The translations under genes and the position numbers were made by a program. From the NCBI GenBank assembly GCA_000004985.1, contig GG738848.1: a stretch of DNA of 64,000 bases; one strand, 5' to 3'. Origin of the DNA: Naegleria gruberi (lineage: Eukaryota). Shown here one piece after another: positions 1,959 through 48,049 of the stretch (position 1 is its first letter; each line of letters opens with the position of its first letter). The notes beneath the pieces are model-generated. The model ran no database searches. It was not told the DNA's origin and worked only from the letters and a program-made list of their open reading frames with translations.

Positions 1959-3142
1959 ATGAATAACAATTCAAACAAATCATTTGCTACTAGAAGAAAC
2001 TCTTCTAATACTGTTCTCAGTTGTATTGTCTGTTTGGTATTATTCACCTTCATGATGACAATGGTTACTCCAATTGAACTTTCCAAAGGAAACAATAAGA
2101 AACCAATGCCACCAAAGCACAATAACACTCATCCTGTTCATCCAACTCATCCAATTGCTAATCACACTCATGCCAACACTCCTGTCAATGACAAGTCTTT
2201 GATTGATAGAATTAATTCCAATCATACTCATGGATGGAAGGCAACTGAATACTCTAGATTTGATAACATGACCATTTCACAACTTAGAGATAATTTATTT
2301 GGTCTTTCATTGATGAGCTCTGATGAAGACACTCCAAGAATGGCAAGTATTGAAACAAGAGTTGATATACCAATGAATTTCGATGCAAGAACTCAATGGA
2401 AAGGATGCGTTCCAGCAATTAGAGATCAACAAACATGTGGTGCTTGTTGGGCTTTGTAAGTTTTACAATTTGATTTATTTCAACTTACAATTTTCATTTT
2501 TGTATTATTTATAATAGCTCTGCAAATTATGTATTGGCTCATAGATTGTGCATTGCCACCAATGGTAAAACAAATGTTGTCCTCTCACCAGAATATCAAG
2601 TTCAATGCGATACAATGAATAAGGCCTGTCAAGGAGGTTATTTGAAATATTCTTGGACATTTTTGGAAAATACTGGAACACCACTCGATACTTGTATTCC
2701 ATATGCTAGTGGAAGAGGAACCTTCTCCTCTGGTACTTGTCCAACTCAATGCAAGATTGCATCCATGTCCATGAGCAAGTATAAGGCCAAAAATACTGTT
2801 TATATTTCAGGTATCAATAATATCAAGACTGCAATCATGACATATGGCAGCGTACAAGCTGGTTTCACAGTCTACAGAGATCTTACAGGGTAAGTTGAAT
2901 TTGTTTCATATATTCTAATTTGTTTTTCTAGATACAAGTCAGGTGTCTATAAACACGTTGTAAGCACAGTTCTTGGTGGACATGCCGTTGCCTTAATTGG
3001 ATTTGGAGTTGAGGGAGGTTCTAATTATTGGTTAGCTGCCAATTCATGGGGTCCAAATTGGGGAATGTCTGGATATTTCAAAATTGCTCAAGGAGAAGGT
3101 GGAATTGAGAATCAAGTTTATGCTGGAGAAGCTGTCTATTAA
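1959..3142 (+). CDS. Cathepsin B-like papain-family cysteine protease; three exons join(1959..2455,2518..2889,2932..3142). N-terminal hydrophobic signal-anchor and a His/Pro-rich linker.
   Basis: [10 protein letters not shown] active-site Cys block is restored by splicing (donor GTAAGT at 2456; acceptor AATAG|C at 2517). Exon 2 [17 protein letters not shown]. Exon 3 [21 protein letters not shown] (active His) and NSWGPNWG (Asn/Trp). The occluding-loop region is cysteine-rich. TAA stop at a conserved C-terminus. Confidence 0.85.
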
Positions 3143-3651: not shown

Positions 3652-6256
3652 TTATTGCAAGATGAGATGAACTGTAATTTCCTCTTGTTCTGAAGAAATA
3701 TTAAGGATTCTCATCTTTTCATTCGATTTTAATAGAGAGGCTAGAGGAGTAGTCAAGTATGATTGCTCGTTATGTTCTGAGAATATTGATGGAGCAAATA
3801 AAGAACCAGTTTCTCCCTTGGAATTTGTAATGAAAATTGTGTCCATCTCCTGATTGAGTGTTCTAGCTTCCTTCACCAATTCCTCAATGGTATCTGTAAA
3901 TTTCATATGAATTTCTTTAATATTATCAGAAATGTTCTCATAATGAATGTCTAAATCATCCAAACAGATATTATACTTGATATAGGAAAGTTTCTTTGAA
4001 TATTGATTCAACTGTTGAAGATATTGAAGTAAATGAAAACATTGAATTGATGCTGCCACGGATGTGGTAGTAATCAGAGCTGGATGAATTGCTCCAGCTA
4101 TTTTCTTTGCTTTGAAAAACTCAATTGGCTTACAAAGTTTCCTCCCAAAAAGGAAAAAGTTTTCTGCCCTAATATTGGAAGTGTCTTGAACGAACTGAAC
4201 CATCAAATCATCATCTTTTTCATATACTAAAGGTTTGAATGGTGAATTGACCTTCATATTTGAGTGAGTCATCTCTTCACTTTTTTCAGGAATAGTTATT
4301 TGGTGGTGAAACTTATTTTCATATTGTTGCAATTCTTCCCTTGTCAATGGCATGAATGGAAATTCAACACTTGATACAGATCTTGTTGATGGAATCAAAT
4401 CATTATTATCAAGATGTCTGTACAGTAAATAAATAGTAGTATTCATAAATGAGAAGTGACTCTCCTTTTCATAATTCAATTTAGCAGGACGTGGAGTAAA
4501 CTCTACCGATTCATTAAGGAAATATTGAATCTTGTTATCTTCATTCAATTCATCCAAATTGCAAAGTGTATTTTCTTGGAATGGACTGACAAATAACTGA
4601 TTAAACACCTCACGTGCAAGCACATAGAGGTGATTATTGACATTTCCAAGTTCAACCCTTTCTAATAATCTTGGGACCATTCTTGTGAAATAATCTTCGT
4701 ATTTCATTTTACTCCACATGATTAAATCTTCATGTTTTTCAGGATTGCTTTTCAGTGTGCAGGATGTTCTGATCTCTTCTCTTTCTTCCTCCTCTGTTTT
4801 TTGATTCTCATTGTGGAAGGGCTTTGTTGAGGCGTAGAGATGGAATGAATTTTGTGAGTAAAATCCTTGAGTTCCAGAGTTGATGAATGGAATTTTGTAA
4901 AGATTACACTTGTGAGAGAGGAATTGTCTTGCATGGTCATTATCTACTGCACCAAAAACAACGTCAATGGAAGACCAGAATGAATCTTGATTAAGATATG
5001 ATTCACTGTCACTGGTCAACTTTTCTTCAAACGATTCAATATTGACCTTTGAATTAAAGTAGTTGACCATCTTTTTCAATATTTGAGATTTCTTTGATCC
5101 AATATCACTTTGAGAGAAGAAAAATTGACGATTAAGATTTGTCAACTCAATACTATCCATATCTGTCACGTACATTGAACCTCTAGTAGTACATGCATTC
5201 ATGACCATCAAGTTCTTTACCAATTCACAACCTATTGCTCCAGCACCAACAATTAAAATATTCAAATCCTCAAGACCTAGCTCTTGAATTTTGAGTTGGC
5301 TTGGAGCCAAAGATAATTGATCAAAAAAGAAATAATATGGGTGCTTTTCTTTTGACAGCTCCAAAATCTGACACAGAATCTCATTTGCTGTAATTGCAGC
5401 AAAAAAACTTGTCTGTTTGTTCATGAGTAATAAAATACTTTGTAAAAGCTTACCATTGCATAATTGGAAGTTTCTCTAACTTTCTCGTGTTGAATGAATT
5501 TTTCATGATAGAAATTTAACAATTGATCTTTAACTTCATTCTCGTCATATGAGTCAATTGGATTTTCCATTTCTTCCATCTTTTCTGTAAATAAATCAAA
5601 CAAGGTGTTGACATCCATATTGTCAATAAAATTAGAAACAAGAGTTGAGAATTCTTCTAATGAAGTGTTCTCAAATATTGCATTGAGAATAGGACCATCT
5701 AAACAGCTTCTGTGAAAATGAGGAATTTGCTCCGTTTCACTTTTTGGAATAGTCAATATTCTTCCAATAAGCCCACTCACTTGAACACTAACTATTGTAT
5801 TAGAAAGATCATTAAAATTTGATTTTTCAATTCCACATTTAACAATACACTTTTAACCATTAGAGATAAAACCTAAACTTTCACTTACTGAGAACTGTTT
5901 CAAATTATTAGAAACTTCATCTGCTGAAACTTGCTTCACATTTGAGTCAGGGTTTAATCGGTGAATTTCTTCTTGGAAATTTTCTCCTTTCACATAACTC
6001 TGATCAAAATTGTAAGCTATTAGAATAGAAGAAGAATACTTACATCAAAATGGATTGTTGACAAATCTCCTTCTTCAATAGCAACAAGAGCCATGGCTTT
6101 GAATCCTAAAAGGATTAAATTTTTGGTCAACTCGACCAACATTGAACAACTTTGAGTATTCCTTTGGTTGTACTCAATCATCAAGTTACTATTATGAATT
6201 TTACTTGTAGAATCCTGCCCTAAAGCATACTCTTGCCTGTCCCATAAGTTTGACAT
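3652..6256 (-). CDS. Single-chain ubiquitin-like activating enzyme E1 (inactive N-terminal plus active C-terminal adenylation halves; catalytic Cys domain); join(6256..6044,5999..5889,5849..5454,5412..3652), about 826 aa
   Basis: Exon 1 has the E1 N-terminal motif LWDRQEYALGQ followed by a degenerate nucleotide-binding region (LVELTKNLILLGFKAMALV), i.e. an inactive adenylation-like half. The large exon has LNILIVGAGAIGCELVKNL (GxGxxG), IELTNLNRQFFF, and a catalytic-Cys block CTLKSNPEKHEDLIMWSK resembling UBA1/UBA2 PICTLKNFP / PGCTIRNTP. Three short introns (44, 39 and 41 nt) use GTAAGT/GTAAGC donors. The ORF-track start MNKQ at 5424 lies inside the last intron. Confidence 0.75.
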
Positions 6257-6272
6257 TTTTTTGATCGAATGT

Positions 6273-6280
6273 TAACGTGA
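6273..6280. promoter_or_regulatory. TAACGTGA element in the 79-bp divergent intergenic region between the E1 and UEV genes
   Basis: Seen in sequence (gttAACGTGAtttcc). It shares the AACGTGA core with the elements at 7976, 8000, 8512, 9015 and 9036. Confidence 0.4.
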
Positions 6281-6335
6281 TTTCCCAAGTCACTTCACTT
6301 TTCAAACTAAACTAATTGAAAAAAATTGTATTACA

Positions 6336-7064
6336 ATGTCTTCATCACGTTTGAGAAGGATCAAAAACGATCTTACAGAGGTACAACAAAATGCTTCTCT
6401 TCCTCCTTTATTAACATTTACACAGACTGAAAATTCTAGTATCATTCTCTTTAGTTTTAACTTGGACGAAACATCAAGTCTTTATGCAGGTGCCAATTTT
6501 CAGATTGAAGTTTCATTCCCAGAAAATTATCCCCACAAACCTCCTTCTTTCACATTCAAACACACCGTTCCATATCATTTCCTTGTTGATCAAATTAATG
6601 GAAAGGTAATTGGCCTCTCAAAACTTTCGACATGGTCAATGCTATTCACTTTACAATCAATATTTTCTGATCTCTACTCAAAATTTGTAAATGAACCAAG
6701 TCAAGAAGATGCTGAACAATGTGGTGTTAATGAGGATATGATTACAGAATATAGAAACACTCCACAAATCTACAGAGAAAAAGCAAGAAACTCTGTCAGA
6801 AAGTTGCAATTAACTGTAATTGAAAATCCTCTTGATTCAAATGAAATGAAGGATGAAGAATCTACTGAATCGAATGAAACGATTCATGAAGTAGTAGTTG
6901 ATGAAAATAACTTGCAGCCAAGTAATCCAATTTTGGAACAACCACTTGATTCAAGATTTGTTAATTCCAGTAATCACCACAAAATTGTTTCTCATGAAGA
7001 TGAATGGAATTATGAATACGGCTTGTATCATTTAAATATGAGATATGGAAATTACAATCAATAA
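6336..7064 (+). CDS. UBC-fold E2 variant (UEV-like, no catalytic Cys) with an acidic C-terminal extension
   Basis: UBC-domain blocks RLRRIKNDL...FQIEVSFPENYPHKPPSFTFKHTVPYHFLVDQINGKVIGLSKLSTWSMLFTLQSIFSDLY align with E2 FxIxFPxDYPFKPPKVxFxTxIYHPNIxxxGxICLDIL. The HPN triad is replaced by YHF and the Cys position by Gly/Ile. It is divergently transcribed from the E1 gene. Confidence 0.6.
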   Translation: MSSSRLRRIKNDLTEVQQNASLPPLLTFTQTENSSIILFSFNLDETSSLYAGANFQIEVSFPENYPHKPPSFTFKHTVPYHFLVDQINGKVIGLSKLSTWSMLFTLQSIFSDLYSKFVNEPSQEDAEQCGVNEDMITEYRNTPQIYREKARNSVRKLQLTVIENPLDSNEMKDEESTESNETIHEVVVDENNLQPSNPILEQPLDSRFVNSSNHHKIVSHEDEWNYEYGLYHLNMRYGNYNQ

Positions 7065-7114
7065 ATATTTTATTCAGAATATATTGTACATTTGTTTTTG
7101 TAACAGATTATTGC

Positions 7115-7945
7115 TTATTGAAATAACAATCTATTTTCAATTTCGTGCAAATCCTCTTTGGTTTGTGTTGGAGCTACAGGCAATGAACACTTGACATATG
7201 CACCATGAGTTGTTCCAGTTGCTTCTGTACCACTACACTTGAACGGCCATTTACCAGTATTTGTATTGTAAAGAGACAAACAAGCATGACAAAAAACAGC
7301 ATTACATCTTGGACAGTGAGTATGCTTGCACCTGTCTAACTTTCCATCAGATGATGCTTGTCTTTCACAATAATTTCCACAATTAACACATAATCTTGCC
7401 AAAGGAACAACTATTTCTTGATTGGATAGATTAATCTTGGCAGTTACAGAGGATCTAGTTGTCAAGGCAGTGATCAAGGGATCTTCATTAGAACATCCAT
7501 TTCCACAAATTCCTTCACCATTCTTCCATTGATTGCCACAAATGAAACAAAAGTCAAATTTGCAAACATCACAACTCAATCTAACATCGCTGGTGTTTCT
7601 TCTAATGAAGTGATTCTTACACTTATTACAAGTAGTTGCTCTCTTGATCTTGTAATGAATATCATTCAATGCTGAATCAAACTCTTCAATTTTATCATAA
7701 TCGATATTGGCTTGATTGACCCAATTCATTGAAATGGTTTCGCCACAATTAGTTTCATCACTTCCAGTTACATTCTTATTGGAACCATAACAAACCATTG
7801 CTGTTCCTTTCGACAAGTTTTGTAAATTTTCAACAAGACAGTCTTGACAAATATAATGTTGACATTTAAGTTTCAATAATTGTTGAGTGCCAAGACAATA
7901 GAAGCATTTAGACATTTTTTTGACTTGAGAGTTCCCAAATGTCAC
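7115..7945 (-). CDS. Cys-rich RBR-like (RING1-IBR-RING2) putative ubiquitin-family E3 ligase, 276 aa
   Basis: Three Cys/His clusters: CFYCLGTQQLLKLKCQHYICQDC (RING-like C3HC4 start); CNKCKNHFIRR...CDVCKFDFCFICGNQW (IBR-like); CVNCGNYCERQASSDGKLDRCKHTHCPRCNAVFCHAC (RING2-like). About 30 Cys in 276 aa. The assignment is by spacing pattern only. Confidence 0.5.
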   Translation of the reverse strand: MTFGNSQVKKMSKCFYCLGTQQLLKLKCQHYICQDCLVENLQNLSKGTAMVCYGSNKNVTGSDETNCGETISMNWVNQANIDYDKIEEFDSALNDIHYKIKRATTCNKCKNHFIRRNTSDVRLSCDVCKFDFCFICGNQWKNGEGICGNGCSNEDPLITALTTRSSVTAKINLSNQEIVVPLARLCVNCGNYCERQASSDGKLDRCKHTHCPRCNAVFCHACLSLYNTNTGKWPFKCSGTEATGTTHGAYVKCSLPVAPTQTKEDLHEIENRLLFQ

Positions 7946-7975
7946 TAGTCAAGCTGCACTTCAAACAGCTTTTTC

Positions 7976-8008
7976 GAAACGTGATGAAACTTATACACTC
8001 AAACGTGA
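7976..8008. promoter_or_regulatory. Two copies of the (G/C)AAACGTGA element (7976-7984 GAAACGTGA; 8000-8008 CAAACGTGA) in the divergent promoter between the RBR-like gene and the UBL gene
   Basis: Seen in sequence: ttttcGAAACGTGAtgaaacttatacactCAAACGTGAtacacc. Confidence 0.4.
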
Positions 8009-8086
8009 TACACCCCAAAACGCAACACAAGAATTCAATAAATAGATTTTAAATCACAGAATATTAATATCTCAATTCATAAAAAA

Positions 8087-8356
8087 ATGTCCACTCCATT
8101 AAACGTTTCCATTCAACAAGGTGTCCATACTAAAGTACTCTCAATCAGTCAAACTGCAACAGTGAAAGACCTTGCAACCATGTACAAATCCCAAACTGAA
8201 CTTAAAGAATTCTACTTTTTGCATAGAACCACCAGACTTGAAGAAACTACTATTGTTTCTCATATTATTAAACATCCAAACCAAAAGTTAGTAGTTGTTG
8301 GAATTGCTAAAGGTGGTTCTGAAGAAGGAAGAGCATCAATCTTGTCTCTTATTTAA
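8087..8356 (+). CDS. Small intronless ubiquitin-like (beta-grasp-like) protein of 89 aa with an internal Gly-Gly 11 residues before the C-terminus (putative UBL precursor)
   Basis: MSTPLNVSIQQGVHTKVLSISQTATVKDLATMYKSQTELKEFYFLHRTTRLEETTIVSHIIKHPNQKLVVVGIAKGG|SEEGRASILSLI. Alternating hydrophobic beta-strand patterns and a central helix fit a ubiquitin-like beta-grasp. The GG is followed by a short tail, as in precursor UBLs. It sits between the E3-like and E2-like genes. Confidence 0.45.
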   Translation: MSTPLNVSIQQGVHTKVLSISQTATVKDLATMYKSQTELKEFYFLHRTTRLEETTIVSHIIKHPNQKLVVVGIAKGGSEEGRASILSLI

Positions 8357-8511
8357 ACCTAGTTGAGTTTCGTCAAGATATTGAAATAAACTCTCTTTTT
8401 TCAATTAAATCGAAATATTAATCATTTCTGCTGCTTATGAAATCAAGCCGTGTGATCAAACGAGAATCTAATTTTGGTGCCACTGGTGCAAATGATTAAG
8501 TTAGGAAGTCT

Positions 8512-8520
8512 GAAACGTGA
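8512..8520. promoter_or_regulatory. GAAACGTGA element 17 nt upstream of the E2-like gene ATG
   Basis: Seen in sequence: gtctGAAACGTGAaaaaaacaattaaaaaATG. Confidence 0.4.
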
Positions 8521-8536
8521 AAAAAACAATTAAAAA

Positions 8537-9016
8537 ATGTCAAAACAAAGAAGAATTCTGAATGAAGTTGCTGAAGCCAACAAGAACAATCATCCAAAGA
8601 TCAAATTTGAAATTTCCCAAGAGAATTTACATGGTTGGAATTGTTCATTTAAAGGTCCAGATAACACTCCCTATCAAGATTTGCAATTTGAAGGAACTCT
8701 CTGTCTTCCGTAAGTTTAGTTTGGATTAGTTTTGCTAATATTTTGCTTGGTTAGAAATGATTTTCCTTCATCAAGACCAACCTTTGTATTCTCTTCCAAA
8801 ACAATTCCATACCACATCAATGTAGACGATAGTGGTGTAGCTTCTGTCTCTTTGCAATGGACTCCCACACTCACAGGAATAGTTTTTGTCGAAAGTGTAA
8901 TTAACATGTTAGAAACTCCACAACCAACTTGTTCTGTTAGTGATGAAAGATTCAAATTATATCAAAGTAACAAAGATCAATATCAAAAACAAGCCAGCAA
9001 ATTCCTCCAAGAATAA
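8537..9016 (+). CDS. UBC-fold E2-like protein, about 151 aa, with Ser at the catalytic-Cys position and HIN instead of HPN; join(8537..8709,8755..9016)
   Basis: Exon 1 MSKQRRILNEVAEANKNNHPKIKFEIS...GWNCSFKGPDNTPYQDLQFEGTLCL (UBC N-terminal helix and the GPxxTPYEGG block). A 45-nt intron (GTAAGT...TTAG) in phase 2 joins it to PNDFPSSRPTFVFSSKTIPYHINVDDSGVASVSLQWTPTLTGIVFVESVINMLETPQP. This aligns to IYHPNINSNGSICLDIL...WSPALTISKVLLSI with C replaced by S. Confidence 0.6.
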
Positions 9017-9044
9017 ACGTGATCATTGTAAACTTGAAACGTGA
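9015..9044. promoter_or_regulatory. Two copies of the AAACGTGA element (9015-9022 and 9036-9044) immediately upstream of the USP gene ATG (9062); the first overlaps the stop codon of the upstream E2-like gene
   Basis: Seen in sequence: gaaTAAACGTGAtcattgtaaacttGAAACGTGAgacgaatcttaaaaaaaATG. Confidence 0.4.
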
Positions 9045-9061
9045 GACGAATCTTAAAAAAA

Positions 9062-45170: not shown

Positions 45171-46082
45171 ATGTCTTTTTGCTACCTTGATGTGTTACCT
45201 CCAGAAATCATTACACTAATTCTCCAGCACTTGTCCTTCTCGGAATTGGCTGCACTTTTGAAACGTGAACCGCAATTTTACCAATTAATTTCTGCTAGTG
45301 ATTTGATGTATGCATTTACATGTACATTCACTCATATTTATTCGAATCAAAAAGAAATGGAAAATGCGCCAAGTTGGATTGCATCAAGAGTGTGGAAAAA
45401 AAGAATACCCCTACCAAAAGAACATATTCACCAATTGACCAAATTTCAAAAATTATTAGCAACAACTAGAAATGATTCCTCCAAATACGAAAAGCATTTG
45501 AAACAATTTCACTATCATCGAATTAAATTATTAATGAGTGCTTGGAAGTACAATCTGAAAACAGATATCAGGTTTTTTAGGCAGAGTGGAATTGAAAATT
45601 ATTTACAATATTTTGAAAATCATCTCACTTGGTTTATGGATTACGATATTCAAGCAAATACACGAGAGCTGAGTTATCTGTTGGTTGAATTACCGATTGA
45701 GCTTTGTGGGTCGATTTTTTGGACATTGAAACATCCTAATTATTATACTATTTTGGAACCTTCAAATTTGGAAAGATTTTGTAAAGTATTGCCCAAGTAT
45801 TTTTACATATTACTCAAATTGGGTCATCCAAGATTTTGTCATAGATTTCCCTCATGGAAACATTCATCACGGCTATCCATATTGATCGAACAAAATTCTG
45901 ATGTGATAGTGAGAGTTCCAAATGGAGTTTGTTTACTTTACTTTATTTCCATGTTTGAGAGAGTTAACCCAAGACAAATTCTATCAAAATTGAGTAGTTC
46001 ACCATCGGTTATTAAGAACGGTGCTCTTTTACAGGAAATGTTGGAAGAATTTGAATTTCCCCTCAAGTACTGGTGGGATTAG
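45171..46082 (+). CDS. F-box-like domain protein (paralog of 47156..48049)
   Basis: N-terminal LDVLPPEIITLILQHLSFSELAALLKREPQFYQLI fits an F-box (LPxEIxxxIxxxL). Confidence 0.45.
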   Translation: MSFCYLDVLPPEIITLILQHLSFSELAALLKREPQFYQLISASDLMYAFTCTFTHIYSNQKEMENAPSWIASRVWKKRIPLPKEHIHQLTKFQKLLATTRNDSSKYEKHLKQFHYHRIKLLMSAWKYNLKTDIRFFRQSGIENYLQYFENHLTWFMDYDIQANTRELSYLLVELPIELCGSIFWTLKHPNYYTILEPSNLERFCKVLPKYFYILLKLGHPRFCHRFPSWKHSSRLSILIEQNSDVIVRVPNGVCLLYFISMFERVNPRQILSKLSSSPSVIKNGALLQEMLEEFEFPLKYWWD

Positions 46083-47155: not shown

Positions 47156-48049
47156 ATGTCATCATTGCAACTTCCGAGAGAAATATTTCATGAAATCTTA
47201 TTGTTTCTTCCTCCGATCAGTATGAAAGAGCTAATAATGGTTTCTAATAGAGATTTTCATAATTTGATAAATGATGTAACATTTCACAAATTATATTTAA
47301 TTAATTTATTCAAAATTCCTAACAACAAGCTTTCTTTATCAAATATATTAGAAAATTTAGATATTCCATTTGATTTAAACTATTCTAAAGTATTTAAATT
47401 ATTGTTAGAATGCACTTTCCAATACAAGGATCATATCTTTGATTCTTCCGAATTAATTTTTACAAATTTCAACAAAATCCCAAAAGAAAATATTGAATTT
47501 ACAAAAAGAGTTCAACTTCCATACATGAAAGAAAATCTAATTCTTTGTTATGGAATGAGAATTCCCTTCAAATGTTGTGGAATTAATAATTCGAAACTAA
47601 TCTTTATCAAATCATTGAAAGAATCCAAATTTGAGAAATTTGGATTAGAAACTTTCATATGCGAAATGGAGATGATTCTCTTTTTGGAAAATGGATTCCC
47701 ACTCGAATTATCAATCTATTGCCAAGATCATCGATATCATGGCAGGTGGATTGTTAAAATTTATGGCCAGGATTTTATTGACCTGAAACGGTCTGAAGGT
47801 TTTTGGGATTTTGAAATAGTTCAGGAAGAAATGATGAAGCTCATGGAGAGCATTTTGTTTAGAGATTTGAAATTCGAATTGCAAGAGTGCGAGAAAGAGT
47901 TGGTTGTTGGATGGAAACGGACAAATATGCAAAAATTGAAATTGACGATAATGGTTAATTGGTTTTATATTGCTACCTTTTCATTCTTGGACATGGATGA
48001 ACCATCAGACAAATTTTACATTATCCATGCACAGCCTGGCCAGGAATAG
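47156..48049 (+). CDS. F-box-like domain protein (paralog of 45171..46082)
   Basis: N-terminal LPREIFHEILLFLPPISMKELIMVSNRDFHNLI F-box-like motif; similar length and organisation to the 45171 gene. Confidence 0.45.
   Translation: MSSLQLPREIFHEILLFLPPISMKELIMVSNRDFHNLINDVTFHKLYLINLFKIPNNKLSLSNILENLDIPFDLNYSKVFKLLLECTFQYKDHIFDSSELIFTNFNKIPKENIEFTKRVQLPYMKENLILCYGMRIPFKCCGINNSKLIFIKSLKESKFEKFGLETFICEMEMILFLENGFPLELSIYCQDHRYHGRWIVKIYGQDFIDLKRSEGFWDFEIVQEEMMKLMESILFRDLKFELQECEKELVVGWKRTNMQKLKLTIMVNWFYIATFSFLDMDEPSDKFYIIHAQPGQE

What the first reader, a model, noticed from the sequence alone, without database searches (positions are those of the whole stretch)
3652..6256. Compact single-chain E1 (about 826 aa) with fused inactive and active adenylation halves; the annotated ORF start is intronic
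Exons 1-3 encode a degenerate adenylation domain (LWDRQEYALGQ ... LVELTKNLILLGFKAMALV, with no GxGxxG). It is fused to an active half (GAGAIGCE, LNRQF, catalytic CTLKSNPEKHEDLIMW). The organisation resembles UBA1/UBA6 but is about 200 aa shorter, or a fusion of the SAE1/SAE2 or NAE1/UBA3 halves. The track ORF start MNKQ (5424) lies inside a 41-nt intron (GTAAGC...AACAG), so automated callers would truncate this gene. The gene shares a 79-bp bidirectional promoter with the UEV gene.
Basis: partly seen in the sequence, partly recalled or inferred. Interest (0 to 1): 0.5.

Follow-up and report, generated by a model that had tools for sequence, protein, structure and literature searches.

The report
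Compact orphan E1 in Naegleria Ubl-cluster
This is a real four-exon Naegleria gruberi gene for a shortened but catalytically intact ubiquitin-type activating enzyme (E1), already annotated in public databases with a flawed gene model, and it sits in a tight, apparently co-regulated cluster that may form a private ubiquitin-like tagging pathway.

Summary
The window is Naegleria gruberi nuclear DNA. The gene is already public as 'ubiquitin activating enzyme E1' (XP_002682133.1, 773 aa). That model shares introns 1 and 2, but starts at Met39 and uses a longer intron 3. It therefore lacks the conserved WDRQ N-terminus and the TSFFAAITANEILCQ helix.

Profile alignment, an MSA-based AlphaFold model (pTM 0.82) and Foldseek place the protein in the single-chain UBA1/UBA6/UBA7 class. 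It has a degenerate inactive adenylation domain, a fully conserved active domain, the catalytic Cys458 in a shortened SCCH domain, and a probable UFD. The FCCH domain is essentially deleted.

It is an orphan paralogue. An exhaustive search of 1.84 billion representatives found nothing closer than about 27-37% identity. N. fowleri, N. lovaniensis and Willaertia have only canonical UBA1.

Unexpectedly, it lies in a 6.8-kb cluster with an unannotated 77-aa GG-ended protein, two Cys-less UBC-fold proteins, an RBR-like E3 and a USP protease. The cluster genes share an AAACGTGA upstream motif. The E1 is probably dedicated to that cassette, but this is inferred, not shown.

The parts
6044..6256 (-). 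E1 exon 1 (aa 1-71). It holds the WDRQ motif (6233-6244) and the degenerate nucleotide-loop region IEYNQRNTQSCSMLVELTKNL.
   Evidence: Met1 is the first ATG of the ORF and sits in an AAAAAAATG context like the other cluster genes. The N-terminus aligns from residue 1 with other E1s (MSNLWDRQEYALGQDSTSKI vs MSSRYDRQSRAWGEDSTNKI). Only 1 aa change in the first 38 codons versus L002.
6000..6043 (-). Intron 1, 44 nt, GTAAGT...ATCAG
   Evidence: It shifts the frame and has an in-frame TAA if retained. Splice sites are conserved in L002, which has a 6-nt insertion here; this is the only indel in the E1 part. The public model P0001 uses the same intron.
5889..5999 (-). E1 exon 2 (aa 72-108)
   Evidence: In frame after splicing. 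Aligns to the UBA1 IAD (RLNPDS vs ELNxYV, with near-invariant L86 and N87).
5850..5888 (-). Intron 2, 39 nt, GTAAGT...AAAAG
   Evidence: Contains an in-frame TAA. It is 100% identical in L002 and is used in the public model.
5454..5849 (-). E1 exon 3 (aa 109-240). It covers the end of the IAD beta-sheet (to about aa 146), then a low-confidence helical segment that replaces the FCCH and holds a shortened 4HB.
   Evidence: AF2 pLDDT is 80-96 up to aa 146 and below 50 for 147-206. The FCCH core maps to only 13-14 residues.
5413..5453 (-). Intron 3, 41 nt, GTAAGC...AACAG. It contains the ORF-track ATG at 5424.
   Evidence: It shifts the frame and has an in-frame TGA. The short acceptor keeps TSFFAAITANEILCQ (5368-5412), which matches the conserved PMTSFIGGIVAQEVxK helix of UBA1 (near-invariant G245, E251 and K254 columns). 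The public model's 86-nt alternative deletes it. No transcript or comparative DNA evidence covers this intron.
3652..5412 (-). E1 exon 4 (aa 241-826 plus stop). It encodes the IAD last helix, the active adenylation domain (GAGAIGCE 5224-5247; DMDSIELTNLNRQ 5125-5163; K348 5089-5091; D397 4942-4944), the catalytic Cys458 (4759-4761), the shortened SCCH (about 4237-4758), the return into the adenylation domain (3988-4236) and a UFD-like C-terminus (3655-3987).
   Evidence: Pfam ThiF 1e-42 and SCCH 2.2e-08. Every invariant column of a 76-sequence E1 alignment is kept. AF2 and Foldseek support the fold.
6257..6335 (.). 79-bp divergent intergenic region between the E1 and the Cys-less UBC-fold gene. 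It contains AACGTGA at 6274 (+).
   Evidence: 100% identical in L002, while neighbouring coding DNA differs by 1.4-5%.
6345..6352 (-). AAACGTGA motif in E1 orientation, about 90 bp upstream of the E1 ATG (inside the first codons of the neighbouring gene)
   Evidence: One of 7 copies in 64 kb (1.59 expected; 0 of 100 shuffles reach 7). Six of the seven lie in 6345-9044, upstream of cluster genes.
6336..7064 (+). Associated gene: 242-aa UBC-fold protein without a catalytic Cys (UEV-like), XP_002681982.1
   Evidence: Pfam UQ_con 4e-17. The active-site position aligns to Ile. Accession.
7115..7915 (-). Associated gene: 266-aa Cys-rich RING-IBR-Rcat-like protein, XP_002682134.1
   Evidence: IBR E 1.7e-5, below the Pfam cut-off. 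Weak ARIH2 hits at E 0.02. A C-K-H-T-H-C-x2-C-x4-C-x2-C motif was read from the sequence.
8087..8356 (+). Associated gene: unannotated 89-aa ORF with ...VVVGIAKGG at residues 69-77 followed by a 12-aa tail. It is a candidate Ubl precursor.
   Evidence: The exact sequence is absent from the 15-billion-protein collection. The only homologue is the L002 copy at 87% identity, with GIAKGG conserved and an in-frame 9-nt deletion confined to the tail. The only family signal is a sub-threshold OTU1 UBX-like hit at E 6e-4 to 2e-3. No similarity to Ub or NEDD8 was found.
8537..9016 (+). Associated gene: second UBC-fold protein (144 aa, 45-nt intron 8710-8754) with no Cys at the active site
   Evidence: UQ_con 1.4e-22. 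Alignment to UBE2A shows no Cys in ...YHINVDDSGVASVSLQW.... Gene model.
9062..10414 (+). Associated gene: USP/UCH-type cysteine peptidase (my 3-exon model, 416 aa) with a Cys box GNTCYLNS and a His box KYGHYVS
   Evidence: Pfam UCH 1.1e-11. Model; the second intron acceptor was chosen only to restore the frame.

Best explanation
The locus is a four-exon Naegleria gruberi gene for an 826-aa, catalytically competent, single-chain E1 of the UBA1/UBA6/UBA7 class that has lost the FCCH domain.

Inferred mechanism, by homology with Uba1: the degenerate N-terminal adenylation domain packs against the active domain as a pseudo-dimer and supplies the WDRQ arginine. The active domain (GAGAIGCE, D324, NRQ, K348, D397) binds Mg-ATP and adenylates the C-terminal glycine of a ubiquitin-fold protein. 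Cys458 in the shortened SCCH domain then takes it as a thioester. The C-terminal UFD-like domain recruits the next carrier.

The enzyme is not the housekeeping UBA1. It is a fast-evolving paralogue restricted to the N. gruberi lineage. Its most likely substrate is the unannotated 77-aa GG-ended protein encoded 1.8 kb away. That gene belongs to a compact, apparently co-regulated cluster that also encodes two Cys-less UBC-fold proteins, an RBR-like E3 and a USP protease; the protease would remove the 12-aa tail and reverse conjugation.

What is shown: the exon structure is consistent with homology and with a related strain, and the domain architecture and conservation of catalytic residues are established. 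What is inferred: enzymatic activity, substrate identity and downstream transfer.

My sub-confidences are about 0.9 for the gene model and an active UBA1-type E1 without FCCH, about 0.85 for an orphan paralogue rather than the housekeeping E1, and about 0.45 for dedication to the neighbouring GG protein.
For: - **Gene model.** The model is in frame, with stop-containing or frame-shifting GTAAG..AG introns. Introns 1 and 2 and the spliced frame are conserved in L002, with the only indel inside intron 1.
- **N-terminus and intron 3.** Homology supports both Met1 and the short intron 3.
- **Class.** Pfam gives ThiF 1e-42 plus SCCH. PDB ranking is Uba1 > UBA6 > UBA7 > SAE2 > UBA3. hhalign gives E 1.8e-79.
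- **Catalytic residues.** All 23 invariant columns of a 76-sequence E1 alignment are retained, including G296, G298, G301, C302, E303, D324, R335, Q336, K348, D397 and C458.
- **Structure.** AF2 with an MSA gives pLDDT 76.7 and pTM 0.82, with the N-terminal 146 aa at pLDDT 80-96 in a Rossmann-like fold. Foldseek hits full-length Uba1 at E 1e-36 and TMq 0.68.
- **FCCH loss.** Pfam finds no FCCH and the domain mapping shows only 13-14 aligned residues.
- **Orphan status.** After the self hit at 1700 bits, the next best of 1.84e9 representatives scores 169 bits. Canonical UBA1s of N. fowleri, N. lovaniensis and Willaertia are 61-86% identical to each other but only 26-28% identical to this protein.
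- **Cluster.**
- **Shared motif.** AAACGTGA has 6 of its 7 window copies upstream of cluster genes, against 1.59 expected in the whole window. It is conserved in L002 inside an otherwise 14%-diverged spacer.
- **Selection.** ORFs are kept intact. There is one in-frame indel in about 2.3 kb of coding DNA, against 8 indels in about 380 nt of introns and spacers.
Against: - No transcript or protein evidence was available, so intron 3 rests on homology alone.
- The AF2 model was built from an alignment of UBA1 homologues, so its agreement with Uba1 is partly circular.
- The UFD is not detected by Pfam, and its pLDDT is only 50-84.
- pN/pS for E1 exons 1-3 between the two strains is about 0.8 (13 non-synonymous versus 4 synonymous changes). 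This is compatible with relaxed constraint on the N-terminal half.
- The candidate Ubl shows no significant sequence similarity to ubiquitin, NEDD8 or any Pfam Ubl family.
- Both UBC-fold neighbours lack the catalytic Cys, so a classical E1-E2-E3 relay cannot be drawn within the cluster.
- The presence of a canonical UBA1 in N. gruberi itself was not verified here.
Confidence: 0.7

Rival explanations
1. It is a second ubiquitin-activating enzyme, a UBA6-like back-up or specialised Ub E1 that charges ordinary ubiquitin. Its position next to other ubiquitin-system genes would then have no substrate meaning.
For: Its closest relatives by sequence and fold are ubiquitin E1s. The best non-self hit is a second UBA1-like paralogue of another heterolobosean, Percolomonas, so extra Ub-E1 paralogues exist in this phylum. 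The neighbouring GG protein has no proven ubiquitin fold.
Against: It is extremely divergent (26-28% identity to Naegleria-clade UBA1s). It has lost the FCCH, which contacts ubiquitin in Uba1 (from my own knowledge of the Uba1-Ub structures). It has no orthologue in sister species. It shares a rare upstream motif with the neighbouring GG-protein gene.
Confidence: 0.25
2. It is a decaying or non-functional duplicate: a young paralogue drifting towards pseudogenisation together with its Cys-less E2-like neighbours.
For: pN/pS is about 0.8 for E1 exons 1-3 and about 1.4 for the UEV-like gene between two strains. The first adenylation half is degenerate, both UBC-fold genes have lost their Cys, and no orthologues exist elsewhere.
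Against: Every invariant catalytic residue of the active half is intact. Four genes stay open in two strains at 5% divergence, with indels confined to non-coding DNA or in frame. Splice sites and the 79-bp promoter are perfectly conserved. The substitution counts are small, and high pN/pS is also typical of conflict-driven genes.
Confidence: 0.1
3. The gene, or the whole cluster, was acquired from a giant virus, since giant viruses encode similarly compact intronless E1s. This concerns origin, not mechanism.
For: Compact E1s of 720-860 aa occur on densely packed contigs with giant-virus hallmarks (L001 carries RNase HII, Rpb5, FtsJ and ankyrin genes). P0137 aligns collinearly from residue 1. 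BFVD contains a Gaeavirus E1. Viral UBA genes are documented (PMC11915834). In an NJ bootstrap the query pairs with such sequences (P0082 61%, P0137 33%).
Against: The distances are saturated (1.65-1.8), so the pairing is probably long-branch attraction. Viral E1s score no better than cellular ones (140 versus 169 bits). The gene has three spliceosomal introns, the cluster GC of 32.9% equals the flanks, and the viral contigs show no Ubl/E2/RBR/USP neighbours.
Confidence: 0.12
4. It is a fusion of the two subunits of a heterodimeric E1 (SAE1+SAE2 or NAE1+UBA3), i.e. a SUMO or NEDD8 activating enzyme.
For: Like SAE1, the N-terminal half lacks an FCCH domain. The total length is close to the sum of small subunits.
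Against: SAE2 (94 bits) and UBA3 (50 bits) score far below Uba1 (165 bits). A UBA1-type SCCH is present. The Foldseek top 50 are all UBA1, UBA6 or UBA7. The nearest homologues are single-chain UBA1-like proteins.
Confidence: 0.03

Closest known systems
Canonical ubiquitin E1, UBA1 (yeast Uba1, PDB 3cmm/5tr4; also UBA6 and UBA7)
   Same: It is a single chain with an inactive plus an active adenylation domain. All invariant ATP/Mg and NRQ residues are kept. The catalytic Cys lies in an SCCH insertion, followed by the EKDDD...IAGxIxPAxxTTT return segment and a C-terminal beta-grasp-like domain.
   Different: It is about 200 aa shorter. The FCCH is essentially absent, and the 4HB, SCCH and UFD are trimmed. 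The IAD nucleotide loop has no glycines. Identity is only 26-28%. No orthologues exist outside the N. gruberi lineage. It is clustered with other pathway genes.
UBA7 with the ISG15 / UBE2L6 / USP18 system of vertebrates
   Same: This is an analogy only. Both are lineage-restricted, fast-evolving UBA1-family paralogues serving a private Ubl made as a precursor with a C-terminal extension after GG and paired with a dedicated USP.
   Different: UBA7 keeps the full UBA1 architecture, and its partners are not clustered in the genome. There is no evidence here for induction or an immune role. The E2-like partners here lack the catalytic Cys.
Compact E1s encoded by giant viruses (e.g. Gaeavirus UBA, A0A3G5A1K2; metagenomic P0137 of 720 aa)
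   Same: Same single-chain layout, reduced length, no Pfam FCCH/4HB hit, and collinear alignment from residue 1. Viral UBA genes are reported in PMC11915834.
   Different: No closer in sequence than cellular UBA1. The Naegleria gene has introns and host-like composition. The viral contigs lack the accompanying gene cluster.
Prokaryotic Ubl-E1-E2-(E3)-DUB operons (e.g. Caldiarchaeum subterraneum, PMC5654768)
   Same: A physically clustered, apparently complete modifier, activator, carrier, ligase and protease gene set.
   Different: Those use a single-domain homodimeric ThiF-type E1, a small RING and JAB proteases in true operons. Here the parts are eukaryotic types (UBA1-type E1, RBR, USP), transcribed separately from divergent promoters and containing introns.
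SUMO E1 heterodimer SAE1/SAE2
   Same: The inactive half lacks an FCCH, as SAE1 does.
   Different: SAE1/SAE2 has two chains and a different Cys domain, and its sequence similarity to this protein is much lower.

Membership tests
Canonical single-chain E1 (UBA1/UBA6/UBA7 class) | Active adenylation domain with GxGxxGCE, a Mg-binding Asp, the NRQ motif and Lys | tested here: met
   G296, G298, A299, G301, C302, E303, K306, D324, D326, N332, L333, R335, Q336, K348, D397 and R402 all coincide with invariant columns of a 76-sequence alignment. Pfam ThiF 1e-42.
Canonical single-chain E1 (UBA1/UBA6/UBA7 class) | Inactive adenylation domain in the same chain, N-terminal to the active one, starting with the (Y/W)xRQ arginine motif | tested here: met
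   Collinear alignment of aa 1-141 and 241-275 with the UBA1 IAD. MSNLWDRQ aligns with MSSRYDRQ. Near-invariant E42, K45, L49, G51, L86 and N87 are kept. AF2 pLDDT is 80-96 with a Rossmann-like topology. The Pfam ThiF model itself does not detect this half.
Canonical single-chain E1 (UBA1/UBA6/UBA7 class) | Catalytic Cys in an SCCH domain inserted in the active adenylation domain | tested here: met
   C458 in TSCTLKSNPEKHEDLIMW aligns with PLCTLRSFPNKIDHTIAW of Uba1 and is an invariant column. Pfam UBA_E1_SCCH scores 2.2e-08, above its cut-off, but covers only part of the model. The domain is 213 versus 246-249 residues.
Canonical single-chain E1 (UBA1/UBA6/UBA7 class) | FCCH domain inserted in the inactive adenylation domain | tested here: not met
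   No PF16190 hit even at E<=1. Only 13-14 query residues span the 70-aa FCCH core of two reference UBA1s. The region aa 147-206 is modelled as low-confidence helix and coil.
Canonical single-chain E1 (UBA1/UBA6/UBA7 class) | Four-helix bundle (4HB) after the FCCH | tested here: inconclusive
   No PF16191 hit. 47-48 residues align to the 70-aa model. AF2 predicts helices at 161-232 with mixed confidence.
Canonical single-chain E1 (UBA1/UBA6/UBA7 class) | C-terminal ubiquitin-fold domain (UFD) for E2 recruitment | tested here: inconclusive
   No PF09358 hit. hhalign and MAFFT align aa 746-821 to the UFD. AF2 gives a beta-beta-alpha-beta-beta-alpha-beta pattern at pLDDT 50-84.
Canonical single-chain E1 (UBA1/UBA6/UBA7 class) | ATP-dependent adenylation and thioester formation with a Ubl, and transfer to a carrier | not testable with these tools
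   Biochemistry is required.
Housekeeping UBA1 orthologue group | Orthologues at high identity across related species | tested here: not met
   N. fowleri, N. lovaniensis and Willaertia UBA1s are 61-86% identical to one another and 26-28% identical to this protein. No hit falls between 1700 and 169 bits among 1.84e9 representatives.
Heterodimeric E1 halves (SAE1/SAE2, NAE1/UBA3) fused | Active half closest to UBA2 or UBA3, with their type of Cys domain | tested here: not met
   SAE2 scores 94 bits and UBA3 50 bits, against Uba1 at 165 bits. A UBA1-type SCCH is present.
Non-canonical E1s (UBA5, ATG7, MOCS3/Uba4) | Single adenylation domain acting as a homodimer, with no SCCH or UFD of the UBA1 type | tested here: not met
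   UBA5 scores 23 bits, Uba4 26 bits, and ATG7 is not hit. Two adenylation-type halves lie in one chain.
Giant-virus E1 genes | Encoded in a viral genome context, or phylogenetically nested among viral sequences | tested here: inconclusive
   The context is cellular: introns, host GC, and cathepsin and hexosaminidase neighbours. The NJ tree is saturated and uninformative.

The most novel reading that the evidence does not exclude
The E1 is the activating enzyme of a self-contained, co-regulated, N. gruberi-lineage-specific ubiquitin-like conjugation cassette. The cassette consists of a GG-ended 77-aa modifier with a cleavable tail, an FCCH-less E1, two Cys-less UBC-fold proteins, an RBR-like ligase with its own catalytic Cys, and a USP. 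This would be a eukaryotic counterpart of prokaryotic Ubl operons.

Because neither UBC-fold protein can carry a thioester, the modifier would pass from E1 Cys458 directly to the RBR cysteine. The UEV-like proteins would act as adaptors, or a housekeeping E2 would be borrowed. The fast evolution would fit a role in conflict, for example against the giant viruses that infect Naegleria.
Probability: 0.3. Interest if true: 0.8.

Novelty: new variant of a known kind. Interest (0 to 1): 0.5.

Why it matters
As a gene, this is an annotated E1. The practical gain is a corrected model: it adds 38 N-terminal residues, including the WDRQ arginine motif, and 15 residues of a conserved helix.

As biology, it shows that the UBA1 scaffold can lose the FCCH domain and still keep every catalytic residue. 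This is of interest for how E1s recognise their Ubl.

The larger point is the context. Modifier, E1, E2-like, E3 and protease genes lie side by side under a shared upstream motif. I know of no such arrangement in a eukaryote, and four literature searches here found none. It offers a small, genetically delimited orthogonal conjugation system that could be reconstituted from six genes. It also poses a concrete mechanistic question: how does the thioester travel when both E2-like proteins lack the cysteine?

Tried and rejected
- **Single-sequence AlphaFold** of the 826-aa protein gave pLDDT 31 and was discarded. A 133-sequence alignment was too large to submit.
- **Exact look-up of the public model** P0001 on contigs returned nothing, so the official neighbouring gene calls were obtained through cluster look-ups instead.
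- **phmmer with the N-terminal 285 aa alone** against session proteins gave only weak but correctly placed hits (E 3e-5 to 6e-4 in a 203-sequence set). Profile and global alignments were needed.
- **A neighbour-joining tree** of 624 conserved columns was uninformative. All distances were 1.65-1.8, and the sister taxon alternated between two long-branch metagenomic E1s. I draw no conclusion on origin from it.
- **Giant-virus contexts** of compact E1s (L001, L003-L006) were inspected for a similar gene cluster. None was found.
- **The candidate Ubl** was compared with PDB sequences, with Pfam at E<=10, and with ubiquitin and NEDD8 by hhalign. The only signal was a sub-threshold OTU1 UBX-like hit.
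- **tblastn of all six cluster proteins** against the window found no second copy.
- **Composition** shows no foreign-DNA signal.
- **Literature searches** for Naegleria plus E1, RBR or Ubl terms found no description of this gene or cluster. This covers only the held library.
- **A search seeded with Percolomonas UBA1** recovered canonical UBA1 from N. fowleri, N. lovaniensis and Willaertia, but not N. gruberi, among the 120 listed. The N. gruberi housekeeping UBA1 therefore remains unverified here.


Full report
**Identity of the window and check of the observation**

The window is AT-rich (33.2% GC) eukaryotic DNA with very short introns. A protein search identified it as Naegleria gruberi. 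The spliced product matches 'ubiquitin activating enzyme E1 [Naegleria gruberi]' (P0001, 773 aa) at 98% identity over 95% of its length; that protein lies on a 712,659-bp scaffold. Its accessions are XP_002682133.1, EFC49389.1 and D2V1X8.

The introns are 44, 39 and 41 nt. All start GTAAG and end AG. Each contains an in-frame stop, and introns 1 and 3 shift the frame. The four ORF pieces seen in the mechanical ORF list can therefore only be joined by these splices. The ORF-track ATG at 5424 lies inside intron 3. The spacer to the neighbouring plus-strand gene is exactly 79 bp.

**Gene model compared with the public model**

P0001 uses the same introns 1 and 2. It differs in two ways: it starts at Met39 (MLVELTKNL...), and it joins ...NYAM directly to ILELSK.

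Both differences go against homology.
- The first 38 residues contain MSNLWDRQEYALGQDSTSKIHNSNLMI. This aligns from residue 1 with the N-termini of other E1s (MSSRYDRQSRAWGEDSTNKILNSSVII in P0144; MEERYSRQILTLGRDAQNSLNNGSVLV in P0137) and with the LYSRQxYVLG consensus of 70 UBA1s. From my own knowledge of E1 and MoeB structures, the arginine of this motif reaches into the ATP site of the partner adenylation domain. A model lacking it would be functionally incomplete.
- The 15 residues dropped by the public model (TSFFAAITANEILCQ, 5368-5412) align with the conserved PMTSFIGGIVAQEVxK helix.
- Met1 is also the first ATG of its ORF. It sits in the AAAAAAATG context shared by the neighbouring genes.

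A 2,710-bp metagenome contig (L002, ENA ERZ929261) from a closely related Naegleria is 94.9% identical to window 5709-8398. In it, the splice sites of introns 1 and 2 and the spliced reading frame are preserved. The only indel in the E1 part is a 6-nt insertion inside intron 1. L002 does not reach intron 3, so that intron rests on homology alone. No transcript data were available.

**What the protein is**

- Pfam finds ThiF (1e-42, aa 287-722, split by an insertion) and part of the UBA1-type SCCH domain (2.2e-08). It finds nothing for aa 1-285 or 722-826.
- Against PDB sequences the order is yeast Uba1 (2.7e-47, 165 bits), UBA6 (130), UBA7 (124), SAE2 (94), UBA3 (50), ThiF, MoeB, Uba4 and UBA5 (23). 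ATG7 is not hit.
- A global profile alignment with UBA1 has probability 100 and E 1.8e-79.
- In a 76-sequence alignment, every invariant column is retained: G296, G298, A299, G301, C302, E303, K306, D324, D326, N332, L333, R335, Q336, K348, D397, R402, G420, T421, P438, C458, P547, K639 and D640. The near-invariant IAD positions E42, K45, L49, G51, L86 and N87 are also kept.
- AlphaFold without an alignment failed (pLDDT 31). With the alignment it gave pLDDT 76.7 and pTM 0.82. Residues 1-146 form a confident (80-96) Rossmann-like alpha/beta domain. Residues 147-206 are below 50. The C-terminal 716-826 shows a beta-grasp-like pattern at pLDDT 50-84.
- Foldseek matches full-length Uba1, UBA6 and UBA7 (E about 1e-36, TMq 0.63-0.69). 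This agreement is partly circular, because the alignment consisted of UBA1 homologues.

I mapped the Pfam domains of two reference UBA1s through the alignment to see where the ~200 residues went:

| Domain | Reference UBA1 (aa) | This protein (aa) |
|---|---|---|
| FCCH | 70 | 13-14 |
| 4HB | 70 | 48 |
| SCCH | 246-249 | 213 |
| UFD | 93 | 76 |

The N-terminal extension is also absent.

The protein is therefore a UBA1-class single-chain E1 with an intact catalytic half and a degenerate, glycine-free inactive half, and it has no FCCH.

**Distribution**

An exhaustive HMMER scan of 1.84 billion representative proteins found the public model itself at 1700 bits. Nothing else scored above 169 bits (E 1.7e-44). 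The best non-self hit, P0041, is a UBA1-like protein of 1038 aa from Percolomonas cosmopolitus, another heterolobosean.

A search seeded with P0041 showed that the database holds canonical, five-domain UBA1s of N. fowleri (1043 aa), N. lovaniensis (1045 aa) and Willaertia magna (1032 aa). These are 61-86% identical to one another but only 26-28% identical to the window protein.

So this is not the housekeeping UBA1, and those genomes hold no orthologue of it. I infer, but did not verify, that N. gruberi has its own canonical UBA1.

Several compact E1s (720-860 aa) in metagenomes sit on dense, intronless contigs with giant-virus hallmarks. BFVD contains a Gaeavirus E1, and viral UBA genes are published (PMC11915834). 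A neighbour-joining tree pairs the query with such sequences, but at saturated distances. The gene has introns and host-like GC, and the viral E1s score no better than cellular ones. I therefore leave its origin open.

**Surroundings**

The E1 is one of six adjacent ubiquitin-system genes in 6.8 kb.

| Position and strand | Product | Main evidence |
|---|---|---|
| 3652-6256 (-) | E1 | above |
| 6336-7064 (+) | 242-aa UBC-fold protein | UQ_con 4e-17; active-site position is Ile |
| 7115-7915 (-) | 266-aa Cys-rich RING/IBR protein | IBR 1.7e-5, below cut-off; ARIH2 E 0.02 |
| 8087-8356 (+) | 89-aa ORF, ...VVVGIAKGG at 69-77 plus a 12-aa tail | see below |
| 8537-9016 (+) | second UBC-fold protein with one 45-nt intron | UQ_con 1.4e-22; no Cys at the active site |
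| 9062-10414 (+) | USP-type peptidase | UCH 1.1e-11; Cys and His boxes intact |

The last zinc module of the RING/IBR protein reads C-K-H-T-H-C-PR-C-NAVF-C-HA-C, the pattern of an RBR catalytic domain.

The 89-aa ORF is absent from the public proteome. Its only homologue is the L002 copy at 87% identity. In that copy GIAKGG is conserved, and the single indel is an in-frame 9-nt deletion in the post-GG tail. Its ubiquitin fold is not demonstrated. The only signal is a sub-threshold OTU1 UBX-like hit, and there is no similarity to Ub or NEDD8.

Flanking genes are ordinary: cathepsin-B-like upstream and hexosaminidase-like downstream. There is no compositional anomaly and no second copy in the window.

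**Evidence for co-regulation and selection**

The octamer AAACGTGA occurs seven times in the 64-kb window, against 1.59 expected; no shuffle out of 100 reached seven. Six of the copies lie between 6345 and 9044. Each sits 24-110 bp upstream of a cluster gene (E1, the GG protein, the second UBC-fold gene, the USP) and in that gene's orientation. The 7-mer AACGTGA adds a copy 62 bp upstream of the first UBC-fold gene.

In L002 the 79-bp E1/UEV spacer is 100% conserved. The first motif in the RBR/GG-protein spacer is also intact, although that spacer is otherwise 14% diverged and rich in indels.

Between the two strains, coding DNA (about 2.3 kb) shows one in-frame indel, against eight indels in about 380 nt of introns and spacers. 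This argues for maintained reading frames.

pN/pS values are high but rest on few substitutions:

| Gene | pN/pS |
|---|---|
| E1 exons 1-3 | 0.80 |
| UEV-like | 1.4 |
| RBR-like | 0.33 |
| GG protein | 0.49 |

This fits either relaxed constraint or rapid adaptive change.

**Mechanism**

By homology with Uba1, the active domain should adenylate a C-terminal glycine. Cys458 should then take the acyl group as a thioester, with the degenerate N-terminal domain acting as the structural partner that supplies the WDRQ arginine. This is inferred, not shown.

The most economical substrate is the neighbouring GG protein after the USP trims its tail. The argument rests on adjacency, conservation of the arrangement in a second strain, the shared upstream motif, the enzyme's loss of the FCCH domain (which contacts ubiquitin in Uba1, from my own knowledge), and its extreme divergence from ubiquitin E1s. 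I give this about 0.45.

The downstream step is unclear because both UBC-fold proteins lack a cysteine. Either a housekeeping E2 is borrowed, or the RBR-like protein is charged directly with the UEV-like proteins as adaptors.

Rivals are a second ubiquitin E1 (about 0.25), a decaying duplicate (about 0.1), a viral origin (about 0.12, and not exclusive of function), and a fused heterodimeric E1 (about 0.03).

**Verdict**

The gene itself is already annotated as an E1, so on its own it is a new variant of a known kind: an FCCH-less, orphan, fast-evolving UBA1-class enzyme.

Interest is raised to moderate by the unreported context. This is a compact, apparently co-regulated cassette of modifier, E1, E2-like, RBR and USP genes that includes an unannotated GG-ended small protein. 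I found no description of it in the searchable literature.

Noticed in passing
window 3652-10414: Six adjacent ubiquitin-system genes: E1, a Cys-less UBC-fold gene, an RBR-like gene, a small GG-ended ORF, a second Cys-less UBC-fold gene and a USP. This looks like a complete modifier/E1/E2-like/E3/DUB cassette in a eukaryote.
   Followed up: partly
window 8087-8356 (+): An unannotated 89-aa ORF ending ...VVVGIAKGG (residue 77) plus the 12-aa tail SEEGRASILSLI. It is absent from the public N. gruberi proteome. It is conserved at 87% aa identity in metagenome contig L002, with an in-frame 3-codon deletion only in the tail. No significant similarity to ubiquitin was found, and its fold was not predicted.
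   Followed up: partly
window 6345-6352(-), 6274(+), 7977, 8001, 8513, 9015, 9037 (+): The motif AAACGTGA (core AACGTGA) is strongly concentrated upstream of the cluster genes, in the orientation of each gene. Six of its 7 window copies are here, against 1.59 expected window-wide. It is conserved in L002. It is a candidate shared cis-regulatory element.
   Followed up: partly
window 6336-7064 (+) and 8537-9016 (+): Both UBC-fold proteins lack the catalytic cysteine. The first has Ile at the aligned position. The second reads YHINVDDSGVASVSLQW with no Cys, but keeps the His and Asn of the HPN-like motif.
   Followed up: partly
window 7115-7915 (-): A Cys-rich 266-aa protein (XP_002682134.1, 'RING-type domain-containing') has RING1-like, IBR-like and Rcat-like modules. 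The last reads C-K-H-T-H-C-x2-C-x4-C-x2-C, which fits an RBR catalytic cysteine. Database support is weak (IBR below the Pfam cut-off; ARIH2 E 0.02).
   Followed up: partly
L002 (ENA ERZ929261 contig, 2710 bp) = window 5709-8398: An environmental contig from a close relative of N. gruberi (94.9% nt identity) is syntenic over the E1 5' exons, the UEV-like gene, the RBR-like gene and the GG-protein gene. It is useful for comparative checks. pN/pS is high for the E1 N-terminus (0.8) and the UEV-like gene (1.4).
   Followed up: yes
L001, L003, L004, L005, L006: Compact, intronless E1 genes (720-961 aa) sit on densely packed metagenome contigs. L001 carries giant-virus hallmark genes (RNase HII, Rpb5, FtsJ, ankyrin). 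None has Ubl, E2, RBR or USP neighbours.
   Followed up: partly
P0041 and P0210 (Percolomonas cosmopolitus transcriptomes): Percolomonas has two full-length UBA1-like proteins only 43% identical to each other. The more divergent one (P0041) is the best non-self hit of the Naegleria compact E1, which hints at an older heterolobosean E1 duplication.
   Followed up: no
window 9062-10414 (+): For the USP gene, my 3-exon model needs a 61-nt second intron (9349-9409) to stay in frame. The more obvious acceptor at 9387 breaks the frame. The long C-terminal K/E-rich extension has no domain hit. My model is not identical to any public protein.
   Followed up: no
window 1959-2893 (+); 10447-12694 (-); 13008-15329 (-); 45171-46082 and 47156-48049 (+): Ordinary flanking genes: a cathepsin-B-like protease (split by an intron), a beta-hexosaminidase-like gene, a protein kinase fused or adjacent to EGF-like Cys-rich repeats, and two F-box-like ORFs (LPPEI... 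motif). The only AAACGTGA copy outside the cluster lies inside the first F-box-like ORF.
   Followed up: no
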